A program made the translations under genes and the position numbers. The notes under the pieces are model-generated. The model saw nothing but the letters and a program-made list of their open reading frames with translations, did not search any database and was not told where the DNA came from. A stretch of DNA of 64,000 nucleotides. It comes from Candidatus Promineofilum glycogenicum (GTDB lineage Bacteria; Chloroflexota; Anaerolineae; Promineifilales; Promineifilaceae). This document shows positions 21,807 through 55,360 of this stretch, piece by piece (the stretch's first letter is position 1; the number at the start of each line of letters is the position of its first letter). Location of the stretch: assembly GCA_016707605.1 (NCBI GenBank), contig JADJHJ010000010.1, forward strand, positions 176,556 through 240,555. The letters run 5' to 3'.

Positions 21807-21885
21807 GTTCCAGGTTCCGGGGGCCAGGTTCCAGGGGAAGACGTGTCTTCCCCTGGAACCTGGCCCCTGGAACCTTCTTTAGCGT
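21807..21885. repeat. 'ccagg' family palindromic element
   Basis: ggttccaggttccgggggccaggttccaggggaagacgtgtcttcccctggaacctggcccctggaacc. Confidence 0.7.
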
Positions 21886-22569: not shown

Positions 22570-22712
22570 ATGCGTCGCACCTTCTTCTCTCCCGGTGCAT
22601 CGCACTTTCTGAAGTGCGTTGCACCTTCTTGAGGGGTTCGCAAGGAAAGGGCGACACACTTAAGAAAGTGCCAGGCACTCGGGAAAGTGCCAGGCACTGA
22701 GAGCGGTAAGAA
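22570..22712. repeat. 'tgcgtcgcac' family palindromic element plus direct repeat aaagtgccaggcact x2
   Basis: tgcgtcgcaccttc...gtgcatcgcactttc...gtgcgttgcacc; the same family fills 29780-29960 and 46951-47340. Confidence 0.6.
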
Positions 22713-24411: not shown

Positions 24412-24592
24412 GTGTAATCCGCAGATTAGGCAGATTTGGGCAGATTTAAGAACCTCACGCAAAGATCGCTAAGAACGCAAAGAACGCAAAGAACGCAAAG
24501 AGAAAATCTTCTTGGCGTTCTTTGCGTCCTTAGCGATCTTTGCGTGAGGTCTTCTTCTGAATCTGCCTAATCTGCCCAATCTGCGGATAAAC
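24412..24592. repeat. Nested composite palindromic element (cagatt arms flanking a gcaaag core)
   Basis: gcagattaggcagatttgggcagatt...TCACGCAAAGATCGCTAAGAACGCAAAG...CTTTGCGTGA...aatctgcctaatctgcccaatctgc; ~180-bp inverted repeat filling the glk-pgl spacer. Confidence 0.8.
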
Positions 24593-27263: not shown

Positions 27264-27284
27264 GACAAGAGATATATCATCCGC

Positions 27285-27452
27285 AGATTGGGCAGATTCG
27301 GCAGATTGTAAGAGGAAAGAATCTCACGTAAAGATCGCTAAGGACGCCAGGTACGCCCATAAGATTTCTTCTTTGCGCGCTTGGCGTTCTTAGCGATCTT
27401 TGCGTGAGGCTCTTCTCTCTGAAAATCTGCTAAATCTGCCCAATCTGCGGAT
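27285..27452. repeat. Composite palindromic element (cagatt arms plus gcaaag core)
   Basis: ccgcagattgggcagattcggcagatt...tcacgtaaagatcgctaaggacgcc...cttagcgatctttgcgtga...aatctgctaaatctgcccaatctgcgg. Confidence 0.75.
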
Positions 27453-27454
27453 CA

Positions 27455-28561
27455 TCACTCTCCGGCCCAGGCCAGCCCCAACTCCACCGCGCGGGCCGTA
27501 TAGCGGGCAATGTGGTCGCGGGTCACGCGCCCCATGTCGTCGCCGCGCTGGTGGGCCTTGAACCAGTCGGTGATCTCCGTCAGCGCGTCCACCCAGGTGT
27601 AGACCGGCCGCCAGTCGAGCCGGTGGGCCGCCTTGTCCCAACTGAGGCGCAGCAGCCCCGTCTCCACCTCGGCGTAGCCCGGCCGGGTGTGCTCCCACGC
27701 CCCGCTGCCCCATAGCTCCACCAGCTTCTCGGCCAGCGCCTGGGCCGTCACCCCCTTCTGCTCCAGCGGGCCGAAGTTCCACGCCTCGCCCAAGGCCGGG
27801 CCGCGCCCCAGCAGTTGCGCCCCCAGCCACAGATAGCCGCTGAGCGGCTCCAGCACGTGCTGCCACGGCCGCACGCTGAGCGGGTTGCGCACGCCGATCG
27901 GCCGCCCGGCCATCAGCGCCTTCATGCAGTCGGGCACGAGGCGGTAGTCGGCGAAGTCGCCGCCGCCGATGACGTTGCCCGCCCGCGTCGAGGCGATGGC
28001 CAGGCCGTGGTTGTCATAGTCGCCCGGCGCGAAGTAGGTGCTGCGATAGGCGGCAATGGCCAGCTCGGCCATGGCTTTGCCCGCGCTATAGGGGTCGTGG
28101 CCGCCCAGCGTGTCGCTCTCGCGGTAGCCCCACAGCCACTCCTGATTCTCGTAGACCTTGTCGGTGGTGATGCTGACCAGGGCGCGGACGCTATCCGTTT
28201 GCCGGATCGCCTCCAGCACGTTGACCGTACCGCCGGTGTTGGTGTCGATGGTCAGCTTGGGCTGCTCCACCGAGCGCAGAACGATGGGCTGCGCCGCCAG
28301 GTGGAAGACGATCTCCGGCCGGTGGGTGGCGATGGTTTCGCATAGAGCATCGAAGTCGCGGATGTCGCCGCGCACGTCGCTGATGCGCTCGCTTAGCCCG
28401 GACAGCACGAAGTTGCTCGGCTGCGTGGGCGGCTCCGGCAGGCTATAGCCGATGACCGTGGCCCCCAGTTCGAGCAGCCAGGTCGTCAGCCACGAGCCTT
28501 TGAAGCCGGTGTGGCCGGTGATGAGGACGGGGAGGTTGGAGTAGGTGTTGGTGAAGGGCAT
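27455..28561 (-). CDS. rfbG: CDP-glucose 4,6-dehydratase
   Basis: VLITGHTGFKGSWL...EIVFHLAAQP...DKVYEN.EW.WGYRE...YSAGKA aligns closely with RfbG/DdhB. Confidence 0.9.
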   Translation of the reverse strand: MPFTNTYSNLPVLITGHTGFKGSWLTTWLLELGATVIGYSLPEPPTQPSNFVLSGLSERISDVRGDIRDFDALCETIATHRPEIVFHLAAQPIVLRSVEQPKLTIDTNTGGTVNVLEAIRQTDSVRALVSITTDKVYENQEWLWGYRESDTLGGHDPYSAGKAMAELAIAAYRSTYFAPGDYDNHGLAIASTRAGNVIGGGDFADYRLVPDCMKALMAGRPIGVRNPLSVRPWQHVLEPLSGYLWLGAQLLGRGPALGEAWNFGPLEQKGVTAQALAEKLVELWGSGAWEHTRPGYAEVETGLLRLSWDKAAHRLDWRPVYTWVDALTEITDWFKAHQRGDDMGRVTRDHIARYTARAVELGLAWAGE

Positions 28562-29779: not shown

Positions 29780-29960
29780 GCGATTATAAGCCACTCCGCA
29801 TCGTATCGCACTTTCTTCTCCCGGTGCGTTGCACTTTCCGGAGTGCATCGCACCTTCTTACAGCAAGGTGCGTCGCACTTTCCAGAAGTGCATCGCACCG
29901 CTCCTGAAAGGCGACTCCAGAAAGTGCGACGCACTCCAGAAAGTGCGACGCACTCCAGAA
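29780..29960. repeat. Array of 'tgcgtcgcac/gtgcgatgca' family palindromic units
   Basis: Repeated tcgcactttc / gtgcgacgcact units; the same family occurs at 22570 and as a 120-bp tandem array at 46951-47340. Confidence 0.7.
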
Positions 29961-30015
29961 AGTGCATCGCACTGGGGGCTATGTTATAGTTGCGGCGTGG
30001 GTGGCCGCAAAGGAC

Positions 30016-33919: not shown

Positions 33920-34849
33920 ATGGCAAAGCACGTGCTGGTGATCGGAGCGACGCTGCTGGACACAAAGGGCAAGCCCTCGGCCGGACTGGCCCCGGGTATG
34001 TCGAACCCGGCCGAGATTCGCTCGACGCGCGGCGGGACGGCGCGCAACGTGGCCGAGAACCTGGCCCGGCTGGGGGCCGAGGTGGTGCTCGTCTCGGCCG
34101 TGGGCGACGACACGACCGGGCGGCAACTGATGATCCAGACAGCCGAGGCGGGGGTCAACCTCGATTACGTTGAGATGGTGGCCGATTATCACACCGGCTC
34201 CTACATCGCCCTGCTGGACGAGGATGGGCGGCTGGCGGTGGCCCTCGATGACGTGGGCGTGATGGAGGTCATCGACGCGCCCTATCTGGCGGCGCGGAGC
34301 GATCTGTTCGCCGAGGCAGCGATGGTGATGTTTGACGGCAGCCTGAGCGAGGCGGCGATGGCCACGGTCGTGCGGCTGGCCCGTGAGAACGACGTGCCGC
34401 TGTGCGCCGACCCGTCGTCGGCCCGCCTGGCCCACAAGCTGCGCCCCTATCTGCCCTATCTGCACCTGCTCGTGCCCAACGAAGTGGAGGAGGCAGCGTT
34501 GTGCGACGTCGGCTTCACCGGCCACGACCCGACGGCGAGCCTGACGCTGGCCGGCCGTCTCGTCGCCGCCGGGGTGGCCAACGTCGTCGTCACCCTGGCC
34601 GACTTCGGGCTGGACTACGCCACCAGCGACGAGAGCGGCTACATTCCCCCGTCGCACACCCACATGGTGGACAGCACCGGCACGGGCGACGCGGTGACAG
34701 CGGCCATCCTCTTCGGGCTGCTCAACGATCTGTCGCCCATCGAGGCCATCCGCCTGGGCGCCGCCGCCGCCGCGCTAACCCTCCAATCCCCCGACACCGT
34801 CGTGCCCGACCTGAGCCTCGATATGCTCTATGACCACCTGATTGTCTAG
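33920..34849 (+). CDS. PfkB-family carbohydrate kinase (ribokinase/pseudouridine-kinase-like)
   Basis: N-terminal LVIGATLLD...TRGGTARNVAENLARLG and C-terminal DSTGTGDAVTAAILFGL (anion-hole DTxGAGD motif). Confidence 0.8.
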   Translation: MAKHVLVIGATLLDTKGKPSAGLAPGMSNPAEIRSTRGGTARNVAENLARLGAEVVLVSAVGDDTTGRQLMIQTAEAGVNLDYVEMVADYHTGSYIALLDEDGRLAVALDDVGVMEVIDAPYLAARSDLFAEAAMVMFDGSLSEAAMATVVRLARENDVPLCADPSSARLAHKLRPYLPYLHLLVPNEVEEAALCDVGFTGHDPTASLTLAGRLVAAGVANVVVTLADFGLDYATSDESGYIPPSHTHMVDSTGTGDAVTAAILFGLLNDLSPIEAIRLGAAAAALTLQSPDTVVPDLSLDMLYDHLIV

Positions 34850-34925
34850 GTTCCAGGGGCCAGGTTCCAGGGGCCAGGGGAAGAGCGCTCTTCCCTGGCC
34901 CCTGGAACCTGGCCCCTGGAACCTT
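34850..34925. repeat. 'ccagg' family palindromic element
   Basis: ggttccaggggccaggttccaggggccaggggaagagcgctcttccctggcccctggaacctggcccctggaacc (near-perfect). Confidence 0.8.
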
Positions 34926-41521: not shown

Positions 41522-42334
41522 GTGCGGCGGCCGGACGAGGCGTTCGGTGCGGCCGACCCGGCGCGCTGGCACTACGCCGATCAACCCTATCTGCCTCTAG
41601 CTCAGCAGGAGCACGACGCCCTGGTCAACACCCTGCTGGGCGCGGGGGTGGAGGTCGTCTACCACGACGCGCCCTTGCCCGACCACGCCGACGCCATCTT
41701 CGTCCACGACCCGGCCCTGCTGACCGAGGGCGGGGCGATCATCCTGCGCATGGGCAAGGCGCTGCGGCACGGGGAGGAGGCGGCGCTGGCCCTGTCGCTG
41801 CGGCGGCTGGGCGTGCCCATCCTCTACGAACTGCACGGCGCGGCCACGGCCGAGGGGGGCGACCTGCTGTGGCTCGACGAGCGGACGCTGGCCGTCGGCC
41901 TGGGCTTCCGCACCAACGCCGCCGGCTTCGACCAGTTGGGCGAGGCGCTGGCCGGGCTGGGCGTGGCCCTTGTGCCCGTGCAACTGCCCTACTTCGAGGG
42001 GCCGGACGCCTGTCTGCACCTGATGTCGCTCATCAGTCTGGTGGATCGTGACCTGGCCGTGGTCTACCGGCCGCTGCTGCCCGTGCCGTTCTACCAGTTG
42101 CTCGAAGCGCGCGGCGTGGCCCTCATCGACGTGTCGGATGAGGAGTTCGCCACCATGGGCACGAACGTGCTGGCCCTGGCCCCGCGCCGCTGCCTGCTGC
42201 TGGAGCACAACCACGCCACGCGCCGGGCGCTGCTGGCCGCCGGCTGCGAGGTGATGACCTATCGCGGCGACGAGCTGTCGCTGAAGGCCGAGGGTGGGGC
42301 GACGTGTCTGACGCGGGCGCTATCTAGGGATTAG
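41522..42334 (+). CDS. Dimethylarginine dimethylaminohydrolase / amidinotransferase-superfamily protein
   Basis: C-terminal catalytic 'GGATCLTRAL' (GGxxC) and central '...EGGDLLWL...' region typical of the DDAH/ADI fold. Confidence 0.65.
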   Translation: MRRPDEAFGAADPARWHYADQPYLPLAQQEHDALVNTLLGAGVEVVYHDAPLPDHADAIFVHDPALLTEGGAIILRMGKALRHGEEAALALSLRRLGVPILYELHGAATAEGGDLLWLDERTLAVGLGFRTNAAGFDQLGEALAGLGVALVPVQLPYFEGPDACLHLMSLISLVDRDLAVVYRPLLPVPFYQLLEARGVALIDVSDEEFATMGTNVLALAPRRCLLLEHNHATRRALLAAGCEVMTYRGDELSLKAEGGATCLTRALSRD

Positions 42335-42470
42335 GGGAATAGCTCACGCCAAGGCGCGAAGAAGCCAAGACGCAAGAGATGTCACGCAAAGACGCAAAGA
42401 ACGCCAAGCCAAAGAGAGCTCTTTTGCGCCTTCTTGCGCCTTGGCGTGAGCTTCTTCCCAACAGGAGGAA
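42335..42470. repeat. 'gcaaag' family palindromic element
   Basis: gctcacgccaaggcgcgaagaagccaagacgcaagagatgtcacgcaaagacgcaaagaacgccaagcc...cttggcgtgagc. Confidence 0.75.
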
Positions 42471-42473
42471 CCT

Positions 42474-43732
42474 ATGCCGCGCATCCGAGAACTGGGCATC
42501 TACCAGAGCGCGCTGCCAACGGGGGCGCGCAACGCGATCAGCGACGTGGCCGGGGTGGCGGTCGGCCACTTCACGCTGGTGGCCGGGGAAGGGACGCCCG
42601 ACCCCGATTGGCAGCCCGGCCACGGCCCCTACCGCACCGGGGTGACGCTCATCCTGCCCCACGGCGGCAACCCCTACGCCGAGCCGGTCGTCGCTGCCGT
42701 CCACACCATCAACGGCTTCGGCAAGCCCATCGGCTTCGAGCAAGTGCGTGAGCTGGGGCTGCTGGAGACGCCCATCGCCCTGACCGGCACGCTCAACGGG
42801 CCGCGCGTGGCCGACGCGCTCATCACCCTGGCCATCGAGCAGAATCCCCACATCGGCGTCGGCTTCGCCGCCAGCGGCTGGCGCGGCTTCGCCAGCGTCA
42901 ACCCGCTGGTGGGTGAGACCAACGACGGCTATCTGAGCGACTTGCAGGGGCGGCCGATTGGCCTGGCCGAGGTGCGCGCCGCGCTGGTCGCGGCTTCGGC
43001 CGACGTGGTCGAAGGCGCGGTCGGCGCGGGCACGGGCACGAGCTGCTACGGCTGGAAGGGGGGCATCGGCACGGCCTCGCGGATACTTGAAGAAGGTTCC
43101 AGGGGCCAGGTTCCAGGGGCCAGGGAAGAACGCTCTTCCCTGGCCCCTGGCCCCTGGAACCTGGTCCCTCTCTGCCCGGCTATACCGTCGGCGCGCTGGT
43201 GCAGACGAACATGGGCCGGGCGGAGGAGTTGACGATCGGTGGCGTGCCGGTGGGGCGGCGACTGGAAGAAGGGGCCAGGGGCCAGGTTCCAGGTTCCAGG
43301 GAAGAGCGTTCTTCCCCTGGCCCCTGGCCCCTGGAACCTGGCCCCTCTCTTCCCGGCGGCTCCATCATGATCGTCCTGGCCACTGACGCCCCGCTCGACA
43401 GCCGCGGGCTGGGGCGACTGGCGGCGCGGGCGGTGTTCGGCTTGGCGCGCACGGGCACGCCCGGCCACGGCGGCAGCGGCGACTTCGTGATCGCCTTCTC
43501 GACGGCCACGAGAAACCGAGTTTCTTCTGAGAAACTCGGTTTCTACGAAACGCTCCACGAGCAGCCGCTCATGGACCTCTTCGCCCTGGCCGTAGTCGAG
43601 TGCGTCGAGGAAGCGATCTACAACAGCCTGCTCATGGCCCATACGACCATCGGCCGCCACGGCCACGTGCGCCATGCGCTGCCGGCGGATGAGGTGGCGC
43701 GCCTCGTCCAGGGATTAGGGATTAGGGATTAG
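42474..43732 (+). CDS. DmpA/peptidase-S58-family L-aminopeptidase with three in-frame palindromic-element insertions; a frame break sits inside the first element (homopolymer, 43138-43140)
   Basis: ...GAGTGTSCYGWKGGIGTASRIL [element 1, 43089-43172] PGYTVGALVQTNMGRAEELTIGGVPVGRRL [element 2, 43265-43352, in frame: EEGARGQVPGSREERSSPGPWPLEPGPSLP] GGSIMIVLATDAP...GDFVIAFSTA [element 3, 43505-43545, in frame: TRNRVSSEKLGFYETL] HEQPLMDLFALAVVE... Element 1 has 'ttccctgg' where element 2 has 'ttcccctgg'; adding one C restores one continuous ORF. Confidence 0.6.
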
Positions 43733-43795
43733 GGGAAGAGCGCTCTTCCCCTAATCCCTAGCCCCTAGCCCCTATTCTTAGCAACTTTTTACACA
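43700..43795. repeat. 'gggatta' family palindromic element
   Basis: gggattagggattagggattaggggaagagcgctcttcccctaatccctagcccctagccccta. Confidence 0.75.
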
Positions 43796-43816
43796 CCGCG
43801 TCGTATACTTCACGAC

Positions 43817-44158
43817 ATGAGATGGGTTCTGCGTTCCAAGATTCACAAGGCGACGGTGACTGATGCCAACGTCGCTTACGTCGGTAGCATCACGATAGAC
43901 GAGGAGTTGATTGAGCGGGTCGGCCTGTGGCCGGGGGAGAAGGTGCTGGTGGTCAGCAACACCAGCGGCGCGCGGCTGGAGACGTATGTCATCGCCGGCG
44001 AGCGCGGGTCGGGCGTCATCAACATGAACGGCGCGGCGGCGCACTTGATCAAACGGGGCGAGGAGATTATTATCATCGGCTTCGAGTTGGCCGACAGGCC
44101 GATTGAGGCGCGGCAGATATTAGTGGATACGGACAACCGCTTCGTTCGGGAACTCTGA
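43817..44158 (+). CDS. panD: Aspartate 1-decarboxylase
   Basis: MRWVLRSKIHKATVTDANVAYVGSITIDEEL...VINMNGAAAHLIKRGEEIIIIGF aligns with PanD, including the Gly-Ser processing site. Confidence 0.9.
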   Translation: MRWVLRSKIHKATVTDANVAYVGSITIDEELIERVGLWPGEKVLVVSNTSGARLETYVIAGERGSGVINMNGAAAHLIKRGEEIIIIGFELADRPIEARQILVDTDNRFVREL

Positions 44159-44159
44159 C

Positions 44160-44245
44160 GCAGAAAGCAACCACAGATGACACAGATTTCACAGATTTCG
44201 CTCCAAAAAATCTGTGTCATCTGTGAAATCTGTGGTTACTTCTTC
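44160..44245. repeat. 'cagatt' family palindromic element
   Basis: ccacagatgacacagatttcacagatttcgctccaaaaaatctgtgtcatctgtgaaatctgtgg. Confidence 0.8.
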
Positions 44246-44273
44246 TATGAGGTCTGAAGAAAAGGAAATCGCC

Positions 44274-44948
44274 ATGACGCAATCGACAGAACTGAGTAGC
44301 CGCGAATGGGAAGTCGTCAACCAATTGCTGGAAGGGAAAAGCAATAAGGAAATCGCTGCCGCGCTGCACATTTCCGTGCGCACCGTCGAATTCCATCTGA
44401 AAAACGTCTATGACAAGCTCCAGGTAAGCTCCAGGACGGAATTGATCCTAAAACTAGGGCAATCCACAGTTGTGGACCGGGAGGAAGTTGCCCAGAATGG
44501 CGATACGTCCGATTCAGAGCCGTTGGCTAAATCTTGGAAACAGGCAGTTTCCGGAATCGGCAAGGAGCTTGGCATGCAAGAGTTTGTGACTGAGAGTGCC
44601 CGCAAGGGCGGCGAAACGGTGACGTTCTTTGAATCGATTGTTTTGTGTCTCTCGAAATACGCGCAGTTTGACGGCCGCGCGTCGCGGTCGGAGTTCTGGT
44701 GGTTTGCGCTGTTCGTCGTCCTCGTCACCGGGGCATTGACGTACCTGAGCGAAGCCGTGGCCAGCGTGTTCCTGATCGCCGTGTTGTTGCCGCTGCTAGC
44801 GGCCGGGGCGCGCCGTCTCCAAGACGCCGGCCGAAGCCCCTGGTACCAACTATACCTGCTGGTCCCGGTGGGCGGGATCGTGATCATGGGTTTCCTGTGG
44901 GCGGAGCCGCCGGTGGATTCTCTGCCTGAGAAGACGCTCTCGGTGTGA
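44274..44948 (+). CDS. LuxR-family HTH regulator fused to a DUF805-like membrane domain
   Basis: LSSREWEVVNQLLEGKSNKEIAAALHISVRTVEFHLKNVYDKL is a LuxR/GerE HTH. The C-terminal 'SRSEFWWFALFVVLVTGAL...' region is DUF805-like. ATG 44274 with a GGAAA RBS is preferred because the listed start is in the repeat. Confidence 0.65.
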   Translation: MTQSTELSSREWEVVNQLLEGKSNKEIAAALHISVRTVEFHLKNVYDKLQVSSRTELILKLGQSTVVDREEVAQNGDTSDSEPLAKSWKQAVSGIGKELGMQEFVTESARKGGETVTFFESIVLCLSKYAQFDGRASRSEFWWFALFVVLVTGALTYLSEAVASVFLIAVLLPLLAAGARRLQDAGRSPWYQLYLLVPVGGIVIMGFLWAEPPVDSLPEKTLSV

Positions 44949-45074
44949 TCGTAGGCGTTCTGAATCGGCGCCCGCAATAGCCGCCGCGGCTACCCTGCCT
45001 GAAGGCAGCGACTCGTCCGGGCAACACATCACCGAGGATGCGTTGCCCGGACGAGTCGTTATAATCACCACCCC

Positions 45075-46577
45075 ATGAACGATGCCGCCCCCTACGTCAA
45101 TGCCCGCCGTCTGGTCAAGGTCTTCCCCACCCCCGCGGGCGACTTCACGGCGCTGAAGGGCATTGACTTGCAGGCTAATCGCGGCGAGTTTGTGGCCGTC
45201 ATCGGCAAGTCGGGCAGCGGCAAATCCACCCTCATCAACCTCATCACCGGCATCGACCGGCCGACCGGCGGCGAAATCCACATCGGCGGCGAGCCGCTGC
45301 ACACCTTCGACGAGGAGCGGCTGGCGGCCTGGCGCGGGCGCAACCTGGGCATCGTCTTCCAGTTCTTCCAACTCCTGCCGACGCTGACGCTGGTCGAGAA
45401 CGTCATGCTGCCGATGGAGATCAACCGCCTCTACGCCCCGGCCGAGCGGCGCGAGCGGGCCATGGGCCTGCTGCAACAGGTGGCGATGGACGAGCAGGCG
45501 CGCAAGCTGCCCTCGGCCGTCTCCGGCGGCCAGCAGCAGCGGGTGGCCATCGCCCGTGCCCTGGCCAACGACCCCGGCCTGATCGTCGCCGACGAGCCGA
45601 CAGGCAACCTCGACAGCCGCACGGCGGAGAGCATCTTCGCCCTCTTCCAACGGCTGGCGGCCGCGGGCAAGACGATCCTCATGGTCACCCACGACGAGGC
45701 CCGCGCCGCGCGCACCGACCGGGCGATCATGATCGCCGACGGCGCGGTGGTCAACGAGCACGTGACGCGGGCGCTGGCGGCGCTGAACTACGACCAGTTG
45801 GCCGAGGTGCAGCGCCACGTGGCGGCTACGAGCTATGCGCCGGGCAACGTCGTCGTGCGCCAGGGGGAGCCGGGCGAGCAGTTCTTCGTCATCACCGGCG
45901 GCCGGGCCGAGGTGTGCGTGCGTCAGCCCGACGGCCGCGACGTGCCCGTCGACCGGCTGGGCGCGGGGCAGTACTTCGGCGAGATGGCCCTGGTGGGGCG
46001 GCAACCGCGGCGGGCGACGGTGCGCGCCGCCGGGGACGAGCCGCTGCGCCTGGTGGCCCTCGACGCGGCCACCTTTGACCGGCTGGTAACCGAGTCGCCG
46101 GCGCTGCGCGACGAGTTGCAGAGCCTCATCAGCCTGCGGCAGATGCAGAGCCAGGTGACGGCGCTGGCCGACCTGGCCCAGACCGACGCTGGGCGCGAGG
46201 CGCTGCGCCGCCTGACCGCCGGCGCGCCGGCGCGCGCCTTCGCCCCCGGCGAGACGATCATCCGCCAGGGGGAGCTGGGCGAGGTGTTCTACTTCATCCT
46301 GGAGGGCGCGGTGGAGGTGTTCGTGCGACGCGGCGAGGACGAGACGCTCATCGACCGCCACGGCCCCGGCGGCCACTTCGGCGAGCTGGCCCTGCTGGGC
46401 GACCGGCGGCGGACGGCGACGGTGCGTGCCGCCCCCCTCGCCCTTGGGGAGAGGGATGGGGTGGGGGCGCGGGTGTTGGAACTGGACGCGGCGGCGTTCG
46501 AGTCGTTGCGGCAGTTGTCGGGGCAGTTCGCGGCCGAAGTAGACAAGGCGGCGGCGGAAAGGGCGTCGCGCTTGTAG
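45075..46577 (+). CDS. ABC transporter ATP-binding protein (MacB/LolD-like NBD) fused to two C-terminal cyclic-nucleotide-binding (cNMP) domains
   Basis: Walker [10 protein letters not shown], signature [15 protein letters not shown] and Walker [13 protein letters not shown]. Two CAP-family cNMP domains follow (...[13 protein letters not shown]...[12 protein letters not shown]...RRATVRAA and ...[13 protein letters not shown]...[12 protein letters not shown]...RTATVRAA). Confidence 0.8.
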
Positions 46578-46651
46578 GGCGGGTTGGTAACCCGCTGTGG
46601 GGACGCAGGGAAGACACAGGTTAAGAAACCTGTGCCACAAGGGAGGATGAC

Positions 46652-49600
46652 GTGGGCACGCTGTGGCGGAAGACGTGGCGCGATTTGTGGCTCTTCAAGG
46701 CGCGGACGGCGCTGGTGGTGCTGGCCATCGCCGTGGGCACGGCCGCGGCCGGGGTGGCCGTGACCAGCCTCATCGTCCTGCGCCGCGACCTGCGCGACGG
46801 CTACCGGGCCACCAATCCGGCCCACGCCATTCTCGACACCTCCCCCTTCGATCCGGCCTTGGCCCAGCGCGTGGCCGAGCGGCCGGGCGTGGCCGCGGCC
46901 GAGGCGCGGCGGGTGGATTCGGCCCGGTTGTTGGTTGCCGCGTGTGAAGACCCTGCCCTCTCCGTGCGTCGCACCTTCTAGGGTGCGTCGCACGTCTCTT
47001 ATGCAGCGGCTGGCGGAGAGGTGCAACGCACTGCGGAAAGTGCGATGCACCGGGCGCTCTCCGTGCGTCGCACCTTCTGGGGTGCGTCGCACGTCTCTTA
47101 TGCAGCGGCTGGCGGAGAGGTGCAACGCACTGCGGAAAGTGCGATGCACCGGGCGCTCTCCGTGCGTCGCACCTTCTGGGGTGCGTCGCACGTCTCTTAT
47201 GCAGCGGCTCTCGGAGAGGTGCAACGCACTGCGGAAAGTGCGATGCACCGGGCGCCTCCGTGCGTCGCACCTTCTGGGTGCGTCGCCGTCAGCGGCTTCG
47301 GAGAGGTGCGACACGGAAAGTGCGATGCACCGGGCAAGTGCGATGCACCAGGAGTGCACGGTGGAGACGCGCCAGGTGGTGCTATGGACTCTGCCCGACG
47401 CCCCGCCAACCATCGGGCGTCTGTTGCCCCAGGATGGCGCGCCCGTGCCCCCGCCGCCGGGCACGCTGCTGCTGGAGCGCTCCGCCCAGGCGGTGCTGCC
47501 CATCGCTGTGGGCGACACGGTGACGCTGCGGCTGAGCGACGGCGACACCTTTCGCCTGACCGTGGCCGGCTTCGTCAACGACATGGCCGTGCCGCCGACG
47601 ACCGTCCAGCCGACCGTCTTCGCCTACATCGCCGACGCCACGGCGGCCCGGCTGGGGCTGGGGGAGCAGGCCAATCAGTTGTTCATTCGCCTTGGCCCCT
47701 TGACGCCTTGGCGTGAGCTCTCTTCCCTGGCCCCTGGCCCCTGGCCCCTAGAACCTACCCGAGCGGAAGTCGAGACAACCGTCACCGCCGTCACCGACTG
47801 GCTGGAAGACGAGGGCGTCGTCGTAGCGCGGGCGGGCATCCCGGAGCCGGGCGTCCACTTGATGCAGGGCAACGTCGACACCGGCCTGCTGATGGTCGGC
47901 ATCCTGGGCGGGCTGACGCTGCTGTTGAGCGCCTTCCTGGTGGCCAACGTCGTCGGCGCGGTCATTGCCCAGCAGACGGCGCAGATCGGCGTGCTGAAGG
48001 CGCTGGGCGGCGGGCGGGGGCTGGTGTTGCGTCTCTACGGGCGGCTGGTGCTCATCTTCGGCGGGCTGGCCCTGCTGCTGGCCGTGCCGTTGGGGCTGGT
48101 GGGAGCGTGGTTCATGTCGTCCACGCTGGCGGCGCAACTCAACTACGACATCCCCTCGTTTGGGCTGACGGCAGGCACGCTACTGGTGCAGGCCGCGGGG
48201 GCACTGCTGGTGCCGCTGCTGGCGGCGCTCGGCCCGGTGTTGGCGGCGGCGCGGCTGCCCGTGCGCGACGCCTTGGCCGGCGAGAAGAGCTCACGCAAAG
48301 GCGCAAAGGAAGAAAAGGCGCAAAGGAAGAAAAGAAAGAACACCACTTCTTCCTTTTCTTACTTCTCTTCTTTGCGCCTTGGCCCCTTTGCGCCTTGGCG
48401 TGAGCTCTCTTCCCCGGCCCCTAGCCCCTGGCCCCTGGCCCCTCGCCTGGGCCTGCGCAACGTCGCCCGCCGCCCGGCGCGGCTGGCCCTGACCGTGGCG
48501 GCGCTGGCGCTGGCCGGGGCGCTGTTCATGGCCACCTTCGGCCTGCGGCTGGGGCTGTACGAGGCGATAGAGATTCTGGTGGGCGAGTTCCCCAGTGACG
48601 TGATCATCGACCTGGAGCAGCCGCAAGCCGTGGCCCGGCTGCGGCGGGCTGCCGATGAGGTAGAAACCGAGTTTCTTCTTAGAAACTCGGTTTCTAGCCG
48701 GGTGGAGCTGTGGGGCGTGGCCGACGCGCGGCGGCTCTACCCCGACGGCCGCGCCGGCAGCAGCTTCACCCTCTACGGCGTGCCGCCCACGACACAGATC
48801 GCGCCGTTTGCCGAACGGGCCGGACGCTGGCTGGGAAAGGATGAAGGCGGAAGGCTGAGGGATGATTCATCCCTCAGCCTTCCGCCTTCATCTTTGTATA
48901 TCAACTACGAGGCCGAGAAGCTACTGGGCCGGCCGGGCGTGGGCGACGAGTTGGCGCTGCGGCTGAACGGGCGCGAGGACGTGGCCGCGCACCTGGTGGG
49001 CATCAGCCTGCGGCCGTTCGACGCCCTGGCCTACATGCCCATCGCCGACTTCGAGCGGGCGACGGGGGAGCGGGGGCGGGCGGGGCGTGTTGTTGTTTAT
49101 CTGGAGGAAGACGCTCACGCCAAGGCGCAAAGAAGCGAAGGCGCAAAGGAAGAACAAGAAGTTCTTTCTTCTCTTCCTTTGCGCCTTGGCCCCTTAGCGC
49201 CTTTGCGTGAGCGTCTTTCGGCAGCGGCCGTGGCCGACGAACTTACCGCCCGCCTCGAAGCCGCCGGCATCGCCGTGGCCCGCACGGAGACGGCCGACGG
49301 CCAGCGCGCCGCCTACCGGGCGCAGTTCGACACGCTGGTGCTGCTGCTGATGAGTCTGGCCGGGCTGACGGCGCTGGTCGGCGGGCTGGGGCTGGGCAAC
49401 ACGATGGCCCTCAACGTGCTGGAGCGGTCGCGGGAGATCGGCGTGCTGCGGGCGCTGGGGGCGCGGCGGCCGTTGCTGCGGCGGCTGGTGCTGGCCGAGG
49501 GGCTGCTCATCGCCCTGGGCAGCGTGGCCCTGGCCGTGCCCCTGGCTGTGCCCCTGACGCTGGCCCTCGACCGGGTCATGGGCGTGTCGCTGCTGGGCAG

Positions 49601-49739
49601 CCCGCTGACCTTCGCCTTCTCTGCCCCGGCGGCGGTGGGCTGGCTGGCGCTGGTGCTGCTCATCGCCGTGGTGGCTTGCTGGCTGCCGGCGGAGCGGGCG
49701 GGGCGGATGACGGTTAGGGAGGCGTTGGCGTATGAGTAG
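46652..49739 (+). CDS. ABC transporter permease with MacB-type periplasmic domain and two FtsX-like TM modules, carrying a 120-bp x3 tandem array and at least five further in-frame palindromic-element insertions; in-frame TAG and frame change inside the array (46979)
   Basis: ORF 46652..46981 (TM1 plus the start of the periplasmic domain) ends at TAG in array copy 1 (copies 2 and 3 have TGG). ORF 46935..49739 reads through the array in another frame and continues ...TVETRQVVLWTLPDAP... to FtsX1, a second periplasmic domain and FtsX2. In-frame elements lie at 47695-47760 (ccagg), 48285-48450 (gcaaag plus ccagg), 48655-48700 (gaaaccgag), 48835-48895 (perfect 53-bp palindrome) and 49100-49215 (gcaaag). 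Confidence 0.55.
46951..47340. repeat. Tandem array: 3 full copies plus a degenerate copy of a 120-bp unit ('tgcgtcgcac' family), in frame within the permease gene
   Basis: The unit ctccgtgcgtcgcaccttctggggtgcgtcgcacgtctcttatgcagcggctggcggagaggtgcaacgcactgcggaaagtgcgatgcaccgggcgct repeats at 46963, 47083 and 47203. Copy 1 has TAG where the others have TGG. Confidence 0.8.
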
Positions 49740-49997: not shown

Positions 49998-50042
49998 GAG
50001 CACTAGAAACCGAGTTTCTTCCGAGAAACTCGGTTTCTAGGT
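49998..50042. repeat. 'gaaaccgagtttc' family palindrome
   Basis: ctagaaaccgagtttcttccgagaaactcggtttctag; other copies at 43505, 48660 and 59350. Confidence 0.75.
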
Positions 50043-51640: not shown

Positions 51641-51683
51641 TAAATTCTGAGTGTCCTAGCGTTGTACTCTTGGCGTTGTTTCC

Positions 51684-53777
51684 ATGACCGATAGCGCCGA
51701 CGACACCCTGACCGCCTCCACCGCAGGCTTATCGCCCACGGTGGTTAGCCACGTCGAAGGCGAGGCCGTCATCATCGGCGACAACGCCCGCCAGCAGATC
51801 AGCTACTACGGCGACATCATCGTCCGCGTCGATTCGCTGGAGGAGCTGCCGCCGAAGCCGGGCGAGCCGCCCTACAAGGGCCTGACCTACTACACCGAGG
51901 CCGACGAGGCCATCTTCTTCGGCCGCGAGCAACTGAGCGACGACCTGGCCGCCCGGTTGCAAACGACGCCCTTCCTGGCCGTGGCCGGGGCGTCGGGCAG
52001 CGGCAAGTCGTCGCTGTTGCGCGCCGGGGTCATTCCCCGCTTGCGGCGGCGCAACTGGCTGACCACCATCCTGACCCCCACGGCCGACCCACTGGGCCAA
52101 CTGGCGGCCGGCCTGTGCCGCGACGAGACCGACCTTAGCGCCGCCGACGCCCTGCGCGCCCAACTGGCCGCCGACCCGCAGACGTTGCGCCGCAAGGCCG
52201 ACCAACTGCTGGCCCGCGCCGGGGCCGGCCGGCTGCTGCTCATCGTCGACCAGTTCGAGGAGTTGTTCACCCAGTGCCACGACGAGGCCGGGCGGCGGGC
52301 GTTCATCGACAACCTGCTGGCCGCGGCGCGGGCCAACGGCCGGGCGACCGTCCTCATCGGCCTGCGGGCCGACTTTATGGGCCGGCTGACCGAGGTCGAA
52401 GAGTTGCGGGCGCTGGTGGAGCAGAACTTCGCCTTGCTGGGGCCGATGCAGCAGGAAGACCTGGTGCGGGTCATCGCCGAGCCGGCGCGCATCGGCGGCT
52501 GGGCCTTCGTCAGCGGCCTGGTCGAGCAGTTCCTGAGCGACGTGGGCCAGGAGCCGGGGCGGCTGCCGCTGCTATCCCACGCCCTGCTGGAGACGTGGGC
52601 GCGGCGGGCCGGGCACGTCATGACGCTGAAGGGCTACCGCGCCGCCGGCGGCGTCGAAGGGGCCATCGCCAAAACGGCCGAGGACACCTTGCGCCGGCTG
52701 GACGGGCCGGGCGAACAGGCCATTGTGCAGGCCATTTTCCTCTCCCTCACCGAGTTAGGCGAGGGATCGGAGGACACGCGCCGCATTGCCCGGCGCGACG
52801 AACTGGCGCGGGCCGGCAACCCGGCGGCGGTCGACGCCGTACTCAACACGCTGGCCGGGGCGCGGCTGGTGACGCTCGAAGCCGACAGCGTCCAGGTGGC
52901 CCACGAAGCGCTCATCCGCCGCTGGCCGCGGTTGCGCGAGTGGCTGGCCGACAACCGCGAGCGGCTGCGGTTTGAGCGGCAGTTGGAGGCGGACGCGGCC
53001 GAATGGCAGCGCCTCAGGCGCGACCCCGGCGCGCTTTATCGTGGGGCGCGGTTGGTTCAGGCGCAGGAGTGGATGCAGAACGGACGTGCTTTGTCGCCTC
53101 TCGTGAGCGAGTTCATGAGCGCGTCGGCAGTGGAGGCGGAGGAAGAGGCGCGGCAGGCACAGCAGTTGGCGCGGGCGGGGCTGGTGCGTCGGTTTTTGTA
53201 TATAGCGGCCGGGTTGGCGGCGGTTGCGGTTTTGGCGGCGATTATAGCCGGGATATTTGGTTACCAGCAGAATCAAACGGCCGGCGCCCTGTCAATCGAG
53301 ACGACCCGCGCTGTATCGGCCGAAGTAGACGCGAACGAGGCGCGAGCGACCTCCGAGTTCAATGAAGCGGAGGCCCAGGCGGCGCGAGCCACGTCCGAAG
53401 CCAATGCGGAGGAGGCCGTTAGTGCCGAAGCCACGGCCGTGGTCGCTCAGGGCGAGGCCGAAGCAGCACGGGCTGAGGTCGAACGGTTGAACCGGGTGAC
53501 CCGCGCCCAACGGCTGGCAGCCGAAGCCGAGAATTTATTAGTACGAGATCCGGAAGATGCGCTCCTGCTGGCTGCAGCCGCCTATCAAGGCACGAATTTG
53601 AGACATGGAACGACTACCGGCGAAGCGCGTGCGGCTTTGTATCATGCACTGGCCTCTCCTTACGAAACTACTTTAATGGTGTACGAAAATGAAACCTTTA
53701 TGCCCTTAATAGAAGCTGGACGAACTGAAGAGGTGTGGTCTGGTCACCTGCATTCAGCCCGGACGGAACGCGGGTAA
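51684..53777 (+). CDS. STAND-class P-loop NTPase (NACHT/nSTAND-like, of the type usually fused to WD40) with winged-helix region, one TM helix and coiled coil; runs into the WD40 repeats after a frame break
   Basis: YKGLTYYTEADEAIFFGRE, Walker A AVAGASGSGKSSLLRAG and Walker B LLLIVDQFEELF match the NTPase found in bacterial NACHT/WD40 proteins. The TM segment is FLYIAAGLAAVAVLAAIIAGIFGY; an Ala/Glu-rich coiled coil follows. Confidence 0.7.
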   Translation: MTDSADDTLTASTAGLSPTVVSHVEGEAVIIGDNARQQISYYGDIIVRVDSLEELPPKPGEPPYKGLTYYTEADEAIFFGREQLSDDLAARLQTTPFLAVAGASGSGKSSLLRAGVIPRLRRRNWLTTILTPTADPLGQLAAGLCRDETDLSAADALRAQLAADPQTLRRKADQLLARAGAGRLLLIVDQFEELFTQCHDEAGRRAFIDNLLAAARANGRATVLIGLRADFMGRLTEVEELRALVEQNFALLGPMQQEDLVRVIAEPARIGGWAFVSGLVEQFLSDVGQEPGRLPLLSHALLETWARRAGHVMTLKGYRAAGGVEGAIAKTAEDTLRRLDGPGEQAIVQAIFLSLTELGEGSEDTRRIARRDELARAGNPAAVDAVLNTLAGARLVTLEADSVQVAHEALIRRWPRLREWLADNRERLRFERQLEADAAEWQRLRRDPGALYRGARLVQAQEWMQNGRALSPLVSEFMSASAVEAEEEARQAQQLARAGLVRRFLYIAAGLAAVAVLAAIIAGIFGYQQNQTAGALSIETTRAVSAEVDANEARATSEFNEAEAQAARATSEANAEEAVSAEATAVVAQGEAEAARAEVERLNRVTRAQRLAAEAENLLVRDPEDALLLAAAAYQGTNLRHGTTTGEARAALYHALASPYETTLMVYENETFMPLIEAGRTEEVWSGHLHSARTERG

Positions 53778-55360
53778 TGACAGCGAGTTGGGACGGCGTG
53801 GCGCGGTTGTGGGACGCAGCTAGCGGGGAAGTAGGTCCCGAGGGTGGGGTCAATTCCGCGGTCTTCAGTCCGGACGGAACATTCGTGGCGACGGCGGGCG
53901 GTGACGGAGCGGCCCGGCTGTGGGACGCTGAGAACGGCGCGGAACTGGCCGTACTGCAAGGTCCCGGGGATGGGATCAGGATTATCGTCTTCAGTCCAGA
54001 TGGCACGCGAGTCGTCACGGTGAGTGATGGGACGCCGCAGCTATGGGATGTTGAGAGCGGCATGGAACTGGGCGTGCTGATCGGGCATGAGTCTATGGTT
54101 CAGTCCGTGGCGTTCAGTTCCGGATGGCACGCAGTTGGTTACGGCAGGCGCTGATGAGACCGCGCGCCTATGGGACGTTGCGAGCAGGGAGGAACTGGCT
54201 GTGCTGGCAGGTCATGAGGGATGGGTCAATTCCGCGGTGTTCAGTCCGGATGGCATGCGCGTGTTGACGGCAAGTGAAGATATGACCGCGCGGCTGTGGG
54301 ACGCTAAGAGCGGTGCGGAATTGACCATGCTGGCAGGGCATCGTGACCGCCTTACCTCAGCGGTATTCAGTCCAGACGGGACACGTATAGTAACCACCAG
54401 CCGTGACGGGACCGCGCGACTGTGGGACGTCAGAAGAGGGATGGAATTAGCCACAATGGTCGAGCATACTATGATAGTCAATTCCGCTGCGTTCAACCCG
54501 GATGGGACGCAGGTGGCAACGGCAGGATGGGACTTGACTGTACGGGTGTGGGACGCTGAGAGCGGCGAGGCGCCGGCCATGCTGGAAGGTCACGACGATC
54601 TAATCAGATCCGTCGCCTTCAGCCCCAATGGTGAACAACTGGTGACGGCGAGCCATGATGGAACAGCGCGGCTATGGGACGTGGCGAGCAGGGAGGAACT
54701 GGCTGTGCTGGAAGGTCATGAGGGTTGGGTCATGTCCGCGGTCTTTAACCCGGACGGAACGAAGGTGATCACGACGGGCTTGGATGGAACAGTGCGGTTG
54801 TGGGACACGGGAACCAGGACAGAGTTGGCCATCCTGAGTCTATATGAAGCAATAATCGATCACCCGTCATTCAGTCCTGAGACATCAGGGATAGTAGCGA
54901 TAAGTGCGGACTTTACGCGGTTAGTAATATCAGGCGCAGACGGGATGGCATGGCTGTGGGACTTAGCCAGCTCTGATCCAGCTGTTGAATTGGCCGGGCA
55001 CAGACGAACCATCTTCTCTGCGGCGTTCAGCCCGGACGGAACGATGGTTGTAACAACGAGCGCTGATGGCACGGCGCGAGTGTGGAAGACGGTGACTGGC
55101 GAGCTTCTGGCCGTGCTGGATGGACACAAAGATTTGGTATGGGCCGCGGCGTTCAGCCCCGACGGGACGCGGGTGGTAACAGCGAGCTGGGACGAAACGG
55201 CCCGACTGTGGGACGCGACCAGTGGGCGTCAACTGGACATATTTACTGGCGATGGAGATAAGTCTCAGCTGTTTTCAGTCCAGACGGATCTCGGGTGGTA
55301 ACGGCAGCCAACAACGGGACGGTGCGAATCTGGGCCGTGGCAGCGTGCCTTTGGAAATGA
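53735..55360 (+). pseudogene. WD40 beta-propeller repeat region (~13 repeats), probably the C-terminal half of the STAND gene; split by at least three 1-nt frameshifts (~53735-53760, ~54115-54122, ~55255-55275)
   Basis: Repeated 'VxSAVFSPDGTRVxTAS.DGTARLWD' units across ORFs 53735..54154, 54087..55301 and the frame ending TGA 55358-55360 (...VFSPDGSRVVTAANNGTVRIWAVAACLWK*). 'gcgttcagttccggatgg' carries an extra t relative to the other eight repeats (gcgttcagtccggatgg). Confidence 0.6.

What the first reader, a model, noticed from the sequence alone, without database searches (positions are those of the whole stretch)
42474..43732. Three palindromic elements inserted in frame in one DmpA-family aminopeptidase gene
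Elements 2 (90 nt) and 3 (~48 nt) are read through without stops. They insert EEGARGQVPGSREERSSPGPWPLEPGPSLP and TRNRVSSEKLGFYETL into an otherwise typical S58 peptidase. Element 1 is a near-copy of element 2. It breaks the frame only because a C-run is one C shorter than in element 2 (ttccctgg versus ttcccctgg); with that C restored, the whole gene is one ORF. This resembles Rickettsia palindromic elements (RPEs) inserting into proteins, but with several families and several copies per gene.
Basis: seen in the sequence. Interest (0 to 1): 0.7.

Follow-up and report, generated by a model that had tools for sequence, protein, structure and literature searches.

The report
Palindromic repeats translated inside peptidase gene
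A peptidase gene of an uncultured sludge bacterium (Chloroflexota) carries copies of the genome's own short hairpin-forming DNA repeats inside three protein loops, read in frame as extra amino acids, which shows that "selfish DNA inside proteins", best known from Rickettsia, is also common in a free-living lineage.

Summary
Window 42474-43732 (+) is a DmpA/S58 peptidase gene containing three palindromes: E1 (43089-43172), E2 (43262-43353) and E3 (43511-43544). A fourth (43707-43775) encodes the last six residues and the stop codon. All belong to repeat families found elsewhere in the window, about one palindrome per 2 kb against none in shuffles.

About 55 related species lack any insert at site 1, and most lack one at site 2. 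Other relatives carry different repeat families at the same three sites, always in frame. On a model of an insert-free orthologue the sites are a beta-hairpin turn, the linker just before the Gly|Ser self-cleavage site, and a strand-to-helix loop.

Two corrections:
- E3 replaces a native loop of equal length, so it adds no length.

Best reading: stop-free hairpin repeats tolerated and translated in permissive loops, analogous to Rickettsia palindromic elements but unrelated to them. How they move is unknown: no target-site duplications and no transposase in the window. Whether the frameshift is real needs reads. This is a new variant of a known kind.

The parts
42474..43732 (+). DmpA/S58 (P1 family) aminopeptidase gene, split by one frameshift into ORFs 42474-43232 and 43199-43732
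   Evidence: ORF list. The repaired ORF hits PF03576 at 333 bits. PDB 2drh E=3e-82 and 1b65 E=4e-52.
43089..43172 (+). E1: family-A palindrome. Four AGG(TT/GG)CC heptamers, centre GGGAAGAACGCTCTTCCC, four mirrored heptamers. Lies in protein site 1.
   Evidence: Absent from about 55 orthologues, where site 1 is 27 nt.
43123..43125 (+). G-run (GGG) at the E1 centre. Intact near-identical alleles L081 and L083 have GGGG here. This is the frameshift relative to them.
   Evidence: DNA alignments. The G/C-run length at the centre varies among family-A copies.
43262..43353 (+). E2: family-A palindrome read in frame as EEGARGQVPGSREERSSPGPWPLEPGPSLP. Lies in protein site 2 and ends 3 codons before the Gly|Ser cleavage site.
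   Evidence: No stop in any of the six frames.
43358..43363 (+). Codons GGC TCC, the conserved Gly|Ser autoprocessing site. Ser is the N-terminal nucleophile of the beta chain (SIMIVLATDA).
   Evidence: Invariant S297 and LATDAP in alignment A1. Aligned to DmpA and 2drh. A DmpA beta chain begins SIIVVIATDA (PMC9570944).
43511..43544 (+). E3: perfect 15-bp palindrome AGAAACCGAGTTTCT-TCTG-AGAAACTCGGTTTCT, read as RNRVSSEKLGF. Lies in protein site 3.
   Evidence: Three more copies in the window at 48662-48695, 50005-50038 and 59348-59381.
43707..43775 (+). Fourth element (family B, AGGGATT units, same centre GGGGAAGAGCGCTCTTCCCC). Encodes the last residues GLGIRD and the TAG stop of the gene.
   Evidence: L082 has one extra AGGGATT unit here.
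42323..42460 (+). Composite palindrome (family-B unit plus family-C ACGCAAAG-type arms) filling the spacer before the gene. Its first units give the upstream ADI-like gene its ..SRD-TAG end.
   Evidence: It is an indel hot spot between strains.
34848..34924 (.). Intergenic family-A copy with 32-nt arms, 100% complementary. It starts inside the TAG stop of the pfkB-like gene.
61177..61254 (.). Intergenic family-A copy with the same centre GGAAGAACGCTCTTCC as E1. It starts inside a TAG stop.
47688..49217 (+). Stretch of the ORF 46764-49739, the body of a FtsX/MacB-like permease gene, that reads in frame through five palindromic elements: 47688-47749, 48275-48447, 48661-48696 (E3 family), 48840-48892 and 49108-49217.
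   Evidence: Translation without stops. Two FtsX Pfam domains. Palindromes.

Best explanation
The segments are copies of short, hairpin-forming dispersed repeats that are very abundant in this Promineifilaceae-like Chloroflexota genome, about one per 2 kb. Most copies sit at or just after gene ends. A substantial minority lie inside coding sequence.

In the dmpA gene they occupy the three places where the protein tolerates extra length:
- the turn of a beta-hairpin (site 1, E1);
- the linker that becomes the C-terminal tail of the alpha chain after Gly|Ser self-cleavage (site 2, E2);
- a strand-to-helix loop (site 3, E3).

Family A is made of 7-nt units with no stop codon in any of the six frames. 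Such a copy needs only a total length divisible by three to be read through as a Pro/Gly/Arg/Glu-rich loop. Families that contain TAG or TAA survive only at gene ends, where they often supply the stop codon.

The elements are passengers, filtered by selection on the host ORF. In this window's allele, one base lost from the G-run at the centre of E1 breaks the frame.

Shown: the elements are repeats; they are absent from most orthologues; the frame is kept in all other alleles; the sites are loops. Inferred: that they are translated and tolerated; how they spread.
For: - Repeat nature: 28 strong palindromes in 64 kb against 0 in three shuffles. Family motifs are far above chance. Tandem 7-9-nt units are present.
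- Insertion: site 1 is 27 nt in about 55 species and site 2 is 42-45 nt in most insert-free species.
- Independent hits: the same sites carry other families in relatives. Site 1 has family C in L001 and L089. Site 2 has at least 8 unit types. Site 3 has a GACCTCTGAGGTC hairpin in L001 and L084-L090.
- Frame kept: every element-bearing site in about 40 orthologous loci has a length divisible by 3. P0002 is intact at 97% identity.
- Stop-free rule: family-A core copies have no stops in 6 frames. Family B has stops in all 6 frames, and its 4 copies all lie at gene ends.
- Loops: AF2 model of insert-free P0110 (pLDDT 79, pTM 0.87; TM 0.85-0.88 to 2drh). Sites fall between E189-200 and E209-218, in coil 234-246 before Ser248, and in coil 301-315.
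- Dynamism: between 98-99% identical strains nearly all indels lie in the elements. Examples are a 76-nt element nested in the E1 centre and a change of one 7-nt unit. L084 shows a secondary deletion between CTGGAA repeats.
Against: - No target-site duplication of 4 nt or more at 28 palindromes, and no transposase or reverse transcriptase in the window. Mobility is therefore inferred, not demonstrated.
- The two arms of E1 and E2 differ in the order of their units. That fits poorly with simple copying of a hairpin master.
- Some relatives have one-armed tandem arrays at site 2 (L016, L026, L028), which could arise locally by slippage.
- E3 does not lengthen the loop relative to the family norm.
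- Translation of the inserts has not been observed.
- The elements are better conserved than third codon positions between diverged orthologues. That hints at homogenisation or selection rather than pure neutrality.
Confidence: 0.8

Rival explanations
1. The window's dmpA is a real, recently inactivated pseudogene. The 1-nt loss in the E1 centre is a genuine mutation at an unstable palindrome, not a consensus error.
For: - Palindromic elements are the indel hot spots between near-identical strains.
- G/C-run length at the centre varies among family-A copies.
- L082 also has GGG on the left of the centre, with frame kept by a 76-nt nested insert.
- The window's centre GGGAAGAACGCTCTTCCC is perfectly symmetric, while the in-frame alleles are asymmetric.
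- The 5' part of the FtsX-like gene is also interrupted at a repeat.
Against: - It is a single lesion in an otherwise 97-98% identical gene.
- Three independent assemblies of the same population are in frame.
- Homopolymer miscalls are common in assemblies.
- The ten other window ORFs checked, five overlapping pairs, are separate genes and show no frameshifts.
Confidence: 0.45
2. The segments are native, fast-evolving low-complexity loops that grew in place by replication slippage and local inverted duplication. They are not copies of dispersed elements.
For: - Site 2 varies in length in many species.
- One-armed tandem arrays exist there (L016, L026, L028).
- E3 has the same length as the native loop.
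- Unit-number changes between strains point to slippage.
Against: - The same sequences, including the 16-nt centre and the 34-nt E3 core, recur between genes and in unrelated genes.
- E1 and E2 are absent from about 55 species.
- Different families occupy the same site in sister lineages.
Confidence: 0.05
3. The inserts have been taken over for a function. They could act as mRNA hairpins that pause ribosomes or direct RNA processing. Alternatively, E2 could act as a spacer peptide that tunes self-cleavage, as spacer peptides do in other Ntn hydrolases.
For: - Elements are more conserved than third codon positions between diverged orthologues: E3 94% against 70%, E2 about 90% against 70%.
- E2-type inserts before the cleavage site persist across a clade 70-97% identical.
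- Most intergenic copies sit right at stop codons, like terminator or stabiliser hairpins.
Against: - Relatives do without them, or with unrelated sequences, at the same sites.
- Arms are imperfectly complementary and vary unit by unit.
- The conservation can be explained by homogenisation among hundreds of genomic copies.
Confidence: 0.1
4. The gene is expressed despite the frameshift, through programmed -1 ribosomal frameshifting stimulated by the E1 hairpin.
For: The downstream frame is -1 relative to the upstream frame, and a strong hairpin lies in the overlap 43091-43232.
Against: - No X_XXY_YYZ slippery heptamer in frame anywhere in the overlap.
- Relatives encode one ORF.
Confidence: 0.02

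Closest known systems
Rickettsia palindromic elements (RPEs)
   Same: Dispersed palindromic repeats of several families. They are often inserted in frame in unrelated housekeeping genes and translated as extra peptide segments compatible with the fold (review PMC10969869). Here E2 and E3 are read through, and E1 is read through in allele P0002. All three lie in loops.
   Different: - RPEs are about 100-150 bp and occur in AT-rich obligate intracellular Rickettsia.
- These are 34-92 nt and GC-rich, in a free-living filamentous Chloroflexota.
- Apart from the E3 family, they are built from tandem 7-9-nt units arranged as mirror images.
- They are nested in one another, several per gene, and also supply stop codons at gene ends.
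- No sequence relationship is expected, and none was tested.
REP / REPIN elements mobilised by RAYT transposases
   Same: Short imperfect palindromes at high copy number, concentrated just downstream of genes, without target-site duplications. They form clusters by inserting into one another (PMC3116915). All of these features are seen here.
   Different: - REPs are almost wholly extragenic: 14 of 1,067 overlap genes in P. fluorescens. Here roughly 9-10 of about 33 elements are inside ORFs.
- No GTAG/CGTC tag at E3 ends.
- No RAYT in the window.
- The arms are tandem-unit arrays of variable unit order.
Cyanobacterial STRR heptamer repeats and the GGGNATC / GGGGA(C/T)T repeats of Xanthomonas and Nostoc
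   Same: Tandem 7-nt G-rich units, typically about four per array. They are scattered over the genome and enriched within 50 bp of stop codons (PMC4692102). A related case is the TAACTGA heptamers of Beggiatoaceae (PMC4679880). Units here are AGGGGCC, AGGTTCC and AGGGATT, four per arm.
   Different: [quoted passage not shown] Here each array is paired with its mirror image around a conserved palindromic centre. Copies are commonly translated, and the host phylum is different.
Intragenic MITEs (ERIC, Correia, cyanobacterial MITEs)
   Same: Small non-autonomous repeats that can create in-frame fusions with host ORFs (PMC10969869).
   Different: MITEs have terminal inverted repeats bounding a non-palindromic body, make target-site duplications and have a cognate IS. 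None of these was found here.

Membership tests
Peptidase S58 / DmpA (P1 family Ntn hydrolase) - the host gene | Significant full-length match to Pfam PF03576 | tested here: met
   333 bits against a cut-off of 23.9, profile positions 1-306 of 307, on the repaired ORF.
Peptidase S58 / DmpA (P1 family Ntn hydrolase) - the host gene | Conserved Gly|Ser self-cleavage site with Ser as the nucleophile (G-SIxxVLATDAP) | tested here: met
   GG|SIMIVLATDAP at 43355-43390. S297 and LATDAP are invariant in A1. Aligned to DmpA ERG|SIIVVLATD. Beta-chain N-terminus in PMC9570944.
Peptidase S58 / DmpA (P1 family Ntn hydrolase) - the host gene | DmpA-type Ntn fold | tested here: inconclusive
   The model of the window's own repaired protein failed (pLDDT 36). 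The insert-free orthologue P0110 (about 70% identical) gives TM 0.85-0.88 to 2drh and 0.82 to 1b65.
Peptidase S58 / DmpA (P1 family Ntn hydrolase) - the host gene | Uninterrupted reading frame | tested here: not met
   One frameshift inside E1. The frame is intact in P0002, P0001 and all other loci.
Rickettsia palindromic elements | Dispersed palindromic repeat inserted in frame in ORFs at structurally permissive sites | tested here: met
Rickettsia palindromic elements | Sequence membership in the ten RPE families; about 100-150 bp; Rickettsiales host | tested here: not met
   Lengths are 34-92 nt. The host is Chloroflexota. No RPE library was available for a direct sequence comparison.
MITE | Target-site duplication flanking the element | tested here: not met
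   0 of 28 palindromes have a flanking direct repeat of 4 nt or more, against 6.4% in the random control.
MITE | Cognate transposase or IS with matching ends in the genome | not testable with these tools
   No transposase Pfam hit among about 35 window ORFs. The rest of the genome is not available, because the source genome was not among the GTDB representatives.
REP / REPIN-RAYT | Short imperfect palindromes, high copy number, no target-site duplication, clustered or nested | tested here: met
   Nested composites at 24421-24584, 27269-27462 and 42323-42460.
REP / REPIN-RAYT | Overwhelmingly extragenic location | tested here: not met
   About 9-10 of about 33 elements lie in frame inside ORFs: dmpA x3, the FtsX-like ORF x5, VanZ x1, and possibly an amidase ORF.
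REP / REPIN-RAYT | GTAG or CGTC tag at one end; RAYT gene nearby | tested here: not met
   E3 copies begin GAG, TAG, TAG and CAG followed by AAAC. No Y1 transposase in the window. The rest of the genome is not testable.
STRR-type heptamer repeats | Tandem arrays of a 7-nt unit dispersed over the genome | tested here: met
   TRF finds period-7 arrays at 18587, 21805, 34848, 41392, 43094, 43270, 43710, 47725, 48412 and 49743.
STRR-type heptamer repeats | Direct arrays, under-represented in coding regions, in cyanobacteria | tested here: not met
   The arrays are mirrored around a palindromic centre, are frequently coding, and the host is Chloroflexota.

The most novel reading that the evidence does not exclude
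The mirror-image arrays are not transposed units. They may be scars of a DNA-end process not described in bacteria. In this reading both 3' ends of a break are extended from the same short template (7-9-nt units plus the ..GGGAAGAGC end) and then joined.

This would explain several observations:
- a palindromic centre;
- arms with independent unit order;
- the lack of target-site duplications;
- nesting at palindrome centres;
- species-specific unit sequences at the same permissive loop in dozens of Promineifilaceae.

A weaker version is an undescribed hairpin-mobilising system specific to filamentous Chloroflexota. Such a system would also furnish stop codons and 3' hairpins for a large share of genes.
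Probability: 0.1. Interest if true: 0.85.

Novelty: new variant of a known kind. Interest (0 to 1): 0.6.

Why it matters
In-frame colonisation of proteins by selfish palindromes has so far been treated mainly as a curiosity of Rickettsia. Here it appears at high density in a free-living, environmentally important lineage of activated-sludge filamentous bacteria.

It also comes with a natural experiment. Dozens of species have independently filled the same three loops of one enzyme with different repeats.

This gives:
- a map of where an Ntn-hydrolase fold tolerates 20-60 extra residues;
- a simple rule for which repeats can live in genes: stop-free in six frames and a length divisible by three;
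- a source of rapid protein-length variation, gene inactivation and possibly inversion between strains.

Practically, such elements cause split-gene calls and misassemblies in Chloroflexota metagenome-assembled genomes.

Tried and rejected
- AlphaFold on the repaired window protein with 38 close homologues failed (pLDDT 36). I used an insert-free orthologue with 119 sequences instead.
- Rfam found no known RNA family anywhere in the window.
- No target-site duplications.
- No slippery site for -1 frameshifting.
- No transposase or reverse transcriptase in the window.
- The GTDB genome scan did not find the source genome; the nearest hit was 78% identical. A genome-wide census was therefore impossible.
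- The metagenome scan gave no allele closer than 82%. The GGG/GGGG question could only be addressed with three ENA contigs.
- Checked whether other window genes are frameshifted, as a sign of homopolymer assembly errors. Five overlapping ORF pairs are separate genes. Only the 5' end of the FtsX-like gene looks interrupted.
- Full-text searches for a description of such repeats in Chloroflexi/Promineofilum found nothing.
- The idea that the CCWGG motif in family A or the back-to-back GCTCTTC at the centre reflects a restriction or repair system was not tested and is not claimed.
- Testing whether mirrored units co-vary between arms, done by eye, gave mixed results: perfect in 34848 and 21805, scrambled in E1, E2 and 18584.
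Full report
**What is in the sequence**

Window 42474-43732 (+) contains two overlapping ORFs, 42474-43232 and 43199-43732. Adding one base inside the first palindrome fuses them into a 419-codon ORF. That ORF matches Pfam Peptidase_S58 end to end (333 bits). It also matches solved DmpA-family structures: 2drh at E=3e-82, 1b65 at 4e-52, plus BapA.

- E1: arms 43094-43129 / 43134-43169.
- E2: arms 43270-43301 / 43315-43346.
- E3: 43511-43525 / 43530-43544, a perfect stem.

Each folds far better than dinucleotide shuffles, with z of -7.9, -6.5 and -6.8. E1 and E2 share the same build. Each has four 7-nt units AGG(TT/GG)CC, then a centre GGG(G)AAGARCGYTCTT(C)CCC, then four mirrored units. They also share short flanks, GAAGAAGG and CCCTCTCTKCCCGGC, that intergenic copies lack.

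A fourth element, made of AGGGATT units around the same centre (43707-43775), encodes the last six residues (GLGIRD) and the TAG stop.

**They are dispersed repeats, not chance**

A palindrome scan finds 28 strong palindromes in 64 kb against none in three shuffles. About five more were seen only by other tools. The E3 arm motif occurs eight times (four copies) against 0.11 expected. The 16-nt centre occurs six times against 0.06 expected.

The families are:
- A: AGGGGCC / AGGTTCC units.
- B: AGGGATT units.
- C: ACGCAAAG(A) units.
- D: CACAGATTT / GCAGATT units.
- The 38-nt E3 family, TAGAAACCGAGTTTCT-TCNN-AGAAACTCGGTTTCTA.
- A few singletons.

No Rfam family matches anywhere in the window.

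**Organism and relatives**

The closest proteins and contigs come from activated-sludge and wastewater metagenomes. Named relatives are Promineifilum, Ardenticatenaceae and Promineifilaceae, all Chloroflexota. The source genome itself is not among the GTDB representatives; the best hit is 78% identical.

Three syntenic ENA contigs (L081, L082, L083) are 96-99% identical to the window over 4.8-7.3 kb. They represent the same population.

**Are they insertions?**

I measured the DNA between conserved flanking motifs in 80 genomes and about 40 metagenome loci.

- Site 1 (between GTASR and TVGALVQ) is 27 nt in about 55 species and 101 nt here.
- Site 2 (between GVPVG and SIMIVLATD) is 42-45 nt in most insert-free species, up to about 60 nt in some, and 105 nt here.
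- Site 3 (between GDFVIAFS and EQP) is 60 nt in most species and 57 nt here.

E1 and E2 are therefore net insertions of about 75 and 60 nt.

E3 is a genuine family member, but it sits where the native loop of about 20 residues (..NRVPDRP....RP..) has been lost. The closest lineages show three states at this site:
- a 27-nt stump (TAAPGATIH);
- E3;
- an unrelated hairpin, GACCTCTGAGGTC..GACCTCAGAGGTC.

Different families occupy the same sites in sister lineages:
- Site 1 has family C in L001, L089, L092 and L093.
- Site 2 has at least eight unrelated unit types across species, including 8-mers, low-GC 7-mers and some one-armed arrays.
- L082 and L088 have a further palindrome nested in the centre of E1.
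- L084-L086 have one that overwrites the left arm of E2.
- L084 shows a secondary loss at site 1. It is exactly L085 minus everything between two CTGGAA repeats, leaving 18 nt rather than the ancestral 27.

**Frame and the stop-codon rule**

Every element-bearing site in the roughly 40 other loci has a length divisible by three, and the same frame on both sides where I could check. The window's E1 is the only exception.

Core family-A copies have no stop codon in any of the six frames. A 7-nt unit cycles through all three frames. An array therefore encodes the same 7-residue periodic peptide (..PGPWPLE.. / ..ARGQVPG..) whatever frame it is entered in.

Family B has stops in all six frames. Its four window copies all lie at or just after gene ends.

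Overall, roughly 9-10 of about 33 elements are inside ORFs:
- three in dmpA;
- five in the ORF 46764-49739, the body of a FtsX-like permease gene;
- one inside the VanZ domain of a minus-strand gene;
- possibly one in an amidase ORF.

By contrast, REPs in Pseudomonas fluorescens are about 99% extragenic (PMC3116915).

**Where in the protein**

A model of the repaired window protein was unusable (pLDDT 36). A model of the insert-free orthologue P0110, built with 119 sequences, is good. It has pLDDT 79 and pTM 0.87. It superposes on 2drh (TM 0.85-0.88), BapA and DmpA.

On that model:
- Site 1 is the turn between strands 189-200 and 209-218.
- Site 2 is the coil 234-246, immediately before the strand that starts with the nucleophile Ser248.
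- Site 3 is the coil 301-315, between strand 289-300 and helix 316-339.

In DmpA-family enzymes the precursor cleaves itself at Gly|Ser, giving a beta chain that begins SI(I/M)VV.. (PMC9570944). The E2 peptide would therefore end up as a floppy C-terminal tail of the alpha chain, three residues from the cut. That the inserts are translated and tolerated is an inference from ORF conservation. It has not been observed directly.

**The frameshift**

However, L081 and L083 keep TTCCCTGG and instead have GGGG where the window has GGG at 43123-43125.

The G- and C-run lengths at the centre vary among family-A copies: GGGG/CCC, GGG/CCCC and GGGG/CCCC. The window's E1 is the only GGG/CCC copy, perfectly symmetric but out of frame. 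L082 also has GGG, and is in frame only because its nested insert is 76 nt.

Between these near-identical strains almost all indels fall inside palindromic elements. Examples are a change of one 7-nt unit at 43709, +45 nt at 42458, +76 nt at the E1 centre and 27 nt at 41476. A real mutation is therefore plausible. A homopolymer consensus error is equally plausible.

The ten other window ORFs checked, five overlapping pairs, are separate genes and not frameshifted. There is no slippery heptamer for programmed -1 frameshifting. Only reads can settle this.

**Mechanism of spread**

This remains unresolved. There are no target-site duplications. No transposase or reverse transcriptase is present among about 35 window ORFs.

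The elements nest at each other's centres. Family D arms enclose family C palindromes at 24421-24584 and 27269-27462. The centre of families A and B, GAAGAGC|GCTCTTC, is where C-type GAGCTCACGC.. arms sit in composites such as 48275-48447.

The arms of E1, E2 and 18584-18714 differ in unit order, whereas 34848-34924 and 21812-21875 are perfect or nearly perfect. The elements are better conserved between diverged orthologues than third codon positions. E3 is 94% identical against 70%, and E2 about 90% against 70%. This suggests homogenisation with other copies, re-insertion, or selection.

The most economical reading is a REP/REPIN-like hairpin element system plus slippage and recombination. 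A templated end-addition process is a speculative alternative, given under the novel case.

**Comparison with known systems**

In behaviour these elements match Rickettsia palindromic elements. They are multi-family, inserted in frame, lie in loops, and occur in unrelated genes (PMC10969869). In sequence, size, unit structure and host they do not.

They share position and lack of duplications with REPs. They share the heptamer make-up and closeness to stop codons with cyanobacterial STRR and GGGNATC-type repeats (PMC4692102, PMC4679880). They differ in being mirrored and frequently coding.

Full-text searches found no description of such elements in Chloroflexota. That is absence of evidence within an incomplete library.

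**Verdict**

I rate it a new variant of a known kind, with moderate to high interest.

Noticed in passing
window 46764-49739 (+): The ORF 46764-49739, the body of a FtsX/MacB-like permease gene, reads in frame through five palindromic elements of four families: 47688-47749, 48275-48447, 48661-48696, 48840-48892 and 49108-49217.
   Followed up: partly
window 46652-47300: The 5' part of the same FtsX-like gene starts at about 46652 (VGTLWRKTWRDLW.., also the called start in L081-L083). It runs into a 99-nt x3.4 tandem repeat (46958-47290). It then hits a TAG at 46979-46981, where later repeat units have TGG. The downstream ORF is in another frame. This is a possible second repeat-associated disruption.
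   Followed up: partly
L083:3616-3880 versus window 43089-43352: A metagenome contig 96-99% identical to the window carries an exact 161-nt inversion of window 43140-43300, with breakpoints at the centres of E1 and E2. Its called protein (P0003) reads antisense through the segment. It is either real recombination between palindrome copies or a misassembly.
   Followed up: partly
window, gene ends (e.g. 18586, 21804, 34847, 41392, 42332, 43730, 49737, 58635, 61176): Nine to ten genes end in a TAG that forms the first bases of an AGGxxCC or AGGGATT unit. Family D (GCAGATT) elements follow TGA stops within 1-15 nt. Roughly 20 of about 50 genes have an element at or just after the stop.
   Followed up: partly
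window 26972-27038 (gene on the - strand, 25944-27323): A family-D palindrome lies in frame inside the Pfam VanZ match of a minus-strand gene. The match spans 112 residues for 91 profile positions.
   Followed up: partly
window 24421-24584, 27269-27462, 42323-42460, 48275-48447: Composite, nested palindromes. Outer arms of one family (D, B or A) enclose a complete palindrome of family C. The centre of families A and B is two back-to-back GCTCTTC motifs.
   Followed up: no
window 41955-46731 versus L081, L082, L083: Between strains 98-99% identical, almost every indel lies inside a palindromic element: unit gain or loss of 7 nt, 45-nt arm segments, and a 76-nt nested element.
   Followed up: yes
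window 29831-29973, 22657-22698, 46958-47290: Another repeat type: 19-20-nt units containing GTGCGTCGCAC / GTGCATCGCAC with CTTTC..GAAAG, in tandem upstream of genes and inside the 99-nt repeat.
   Followed up: no
L002, L004, L005, L016, L026, L028, L035, L061, L091, L115, L119 (dmpA site 2): Each species carries its own short-unit repeat at the loop before the Gly|Ser site, either mirrored or one-armed, with 7- or 8-nt units. One case is a low-GC AAGATTA-type unit. This suggests the phenomenon is family-wide in Promineifilaceae and relatives.
   Followed up: partly
window 19222-21117; 51660-53777 and 54104-54341: An Eco57I-like N6 DNA methylase ORF. Separately, an nSTAND1 NTPase followed by 126-nt (WD40-like) tandem repeats.
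   Followed up: no
window 43094-43346 and all family-A copies: Every family-A heptamer contains CCWGG (CCAGG in the left arm, CCTGG in the right). No link to a methylase or mismatch-repair system was tested.
   Followed up: no
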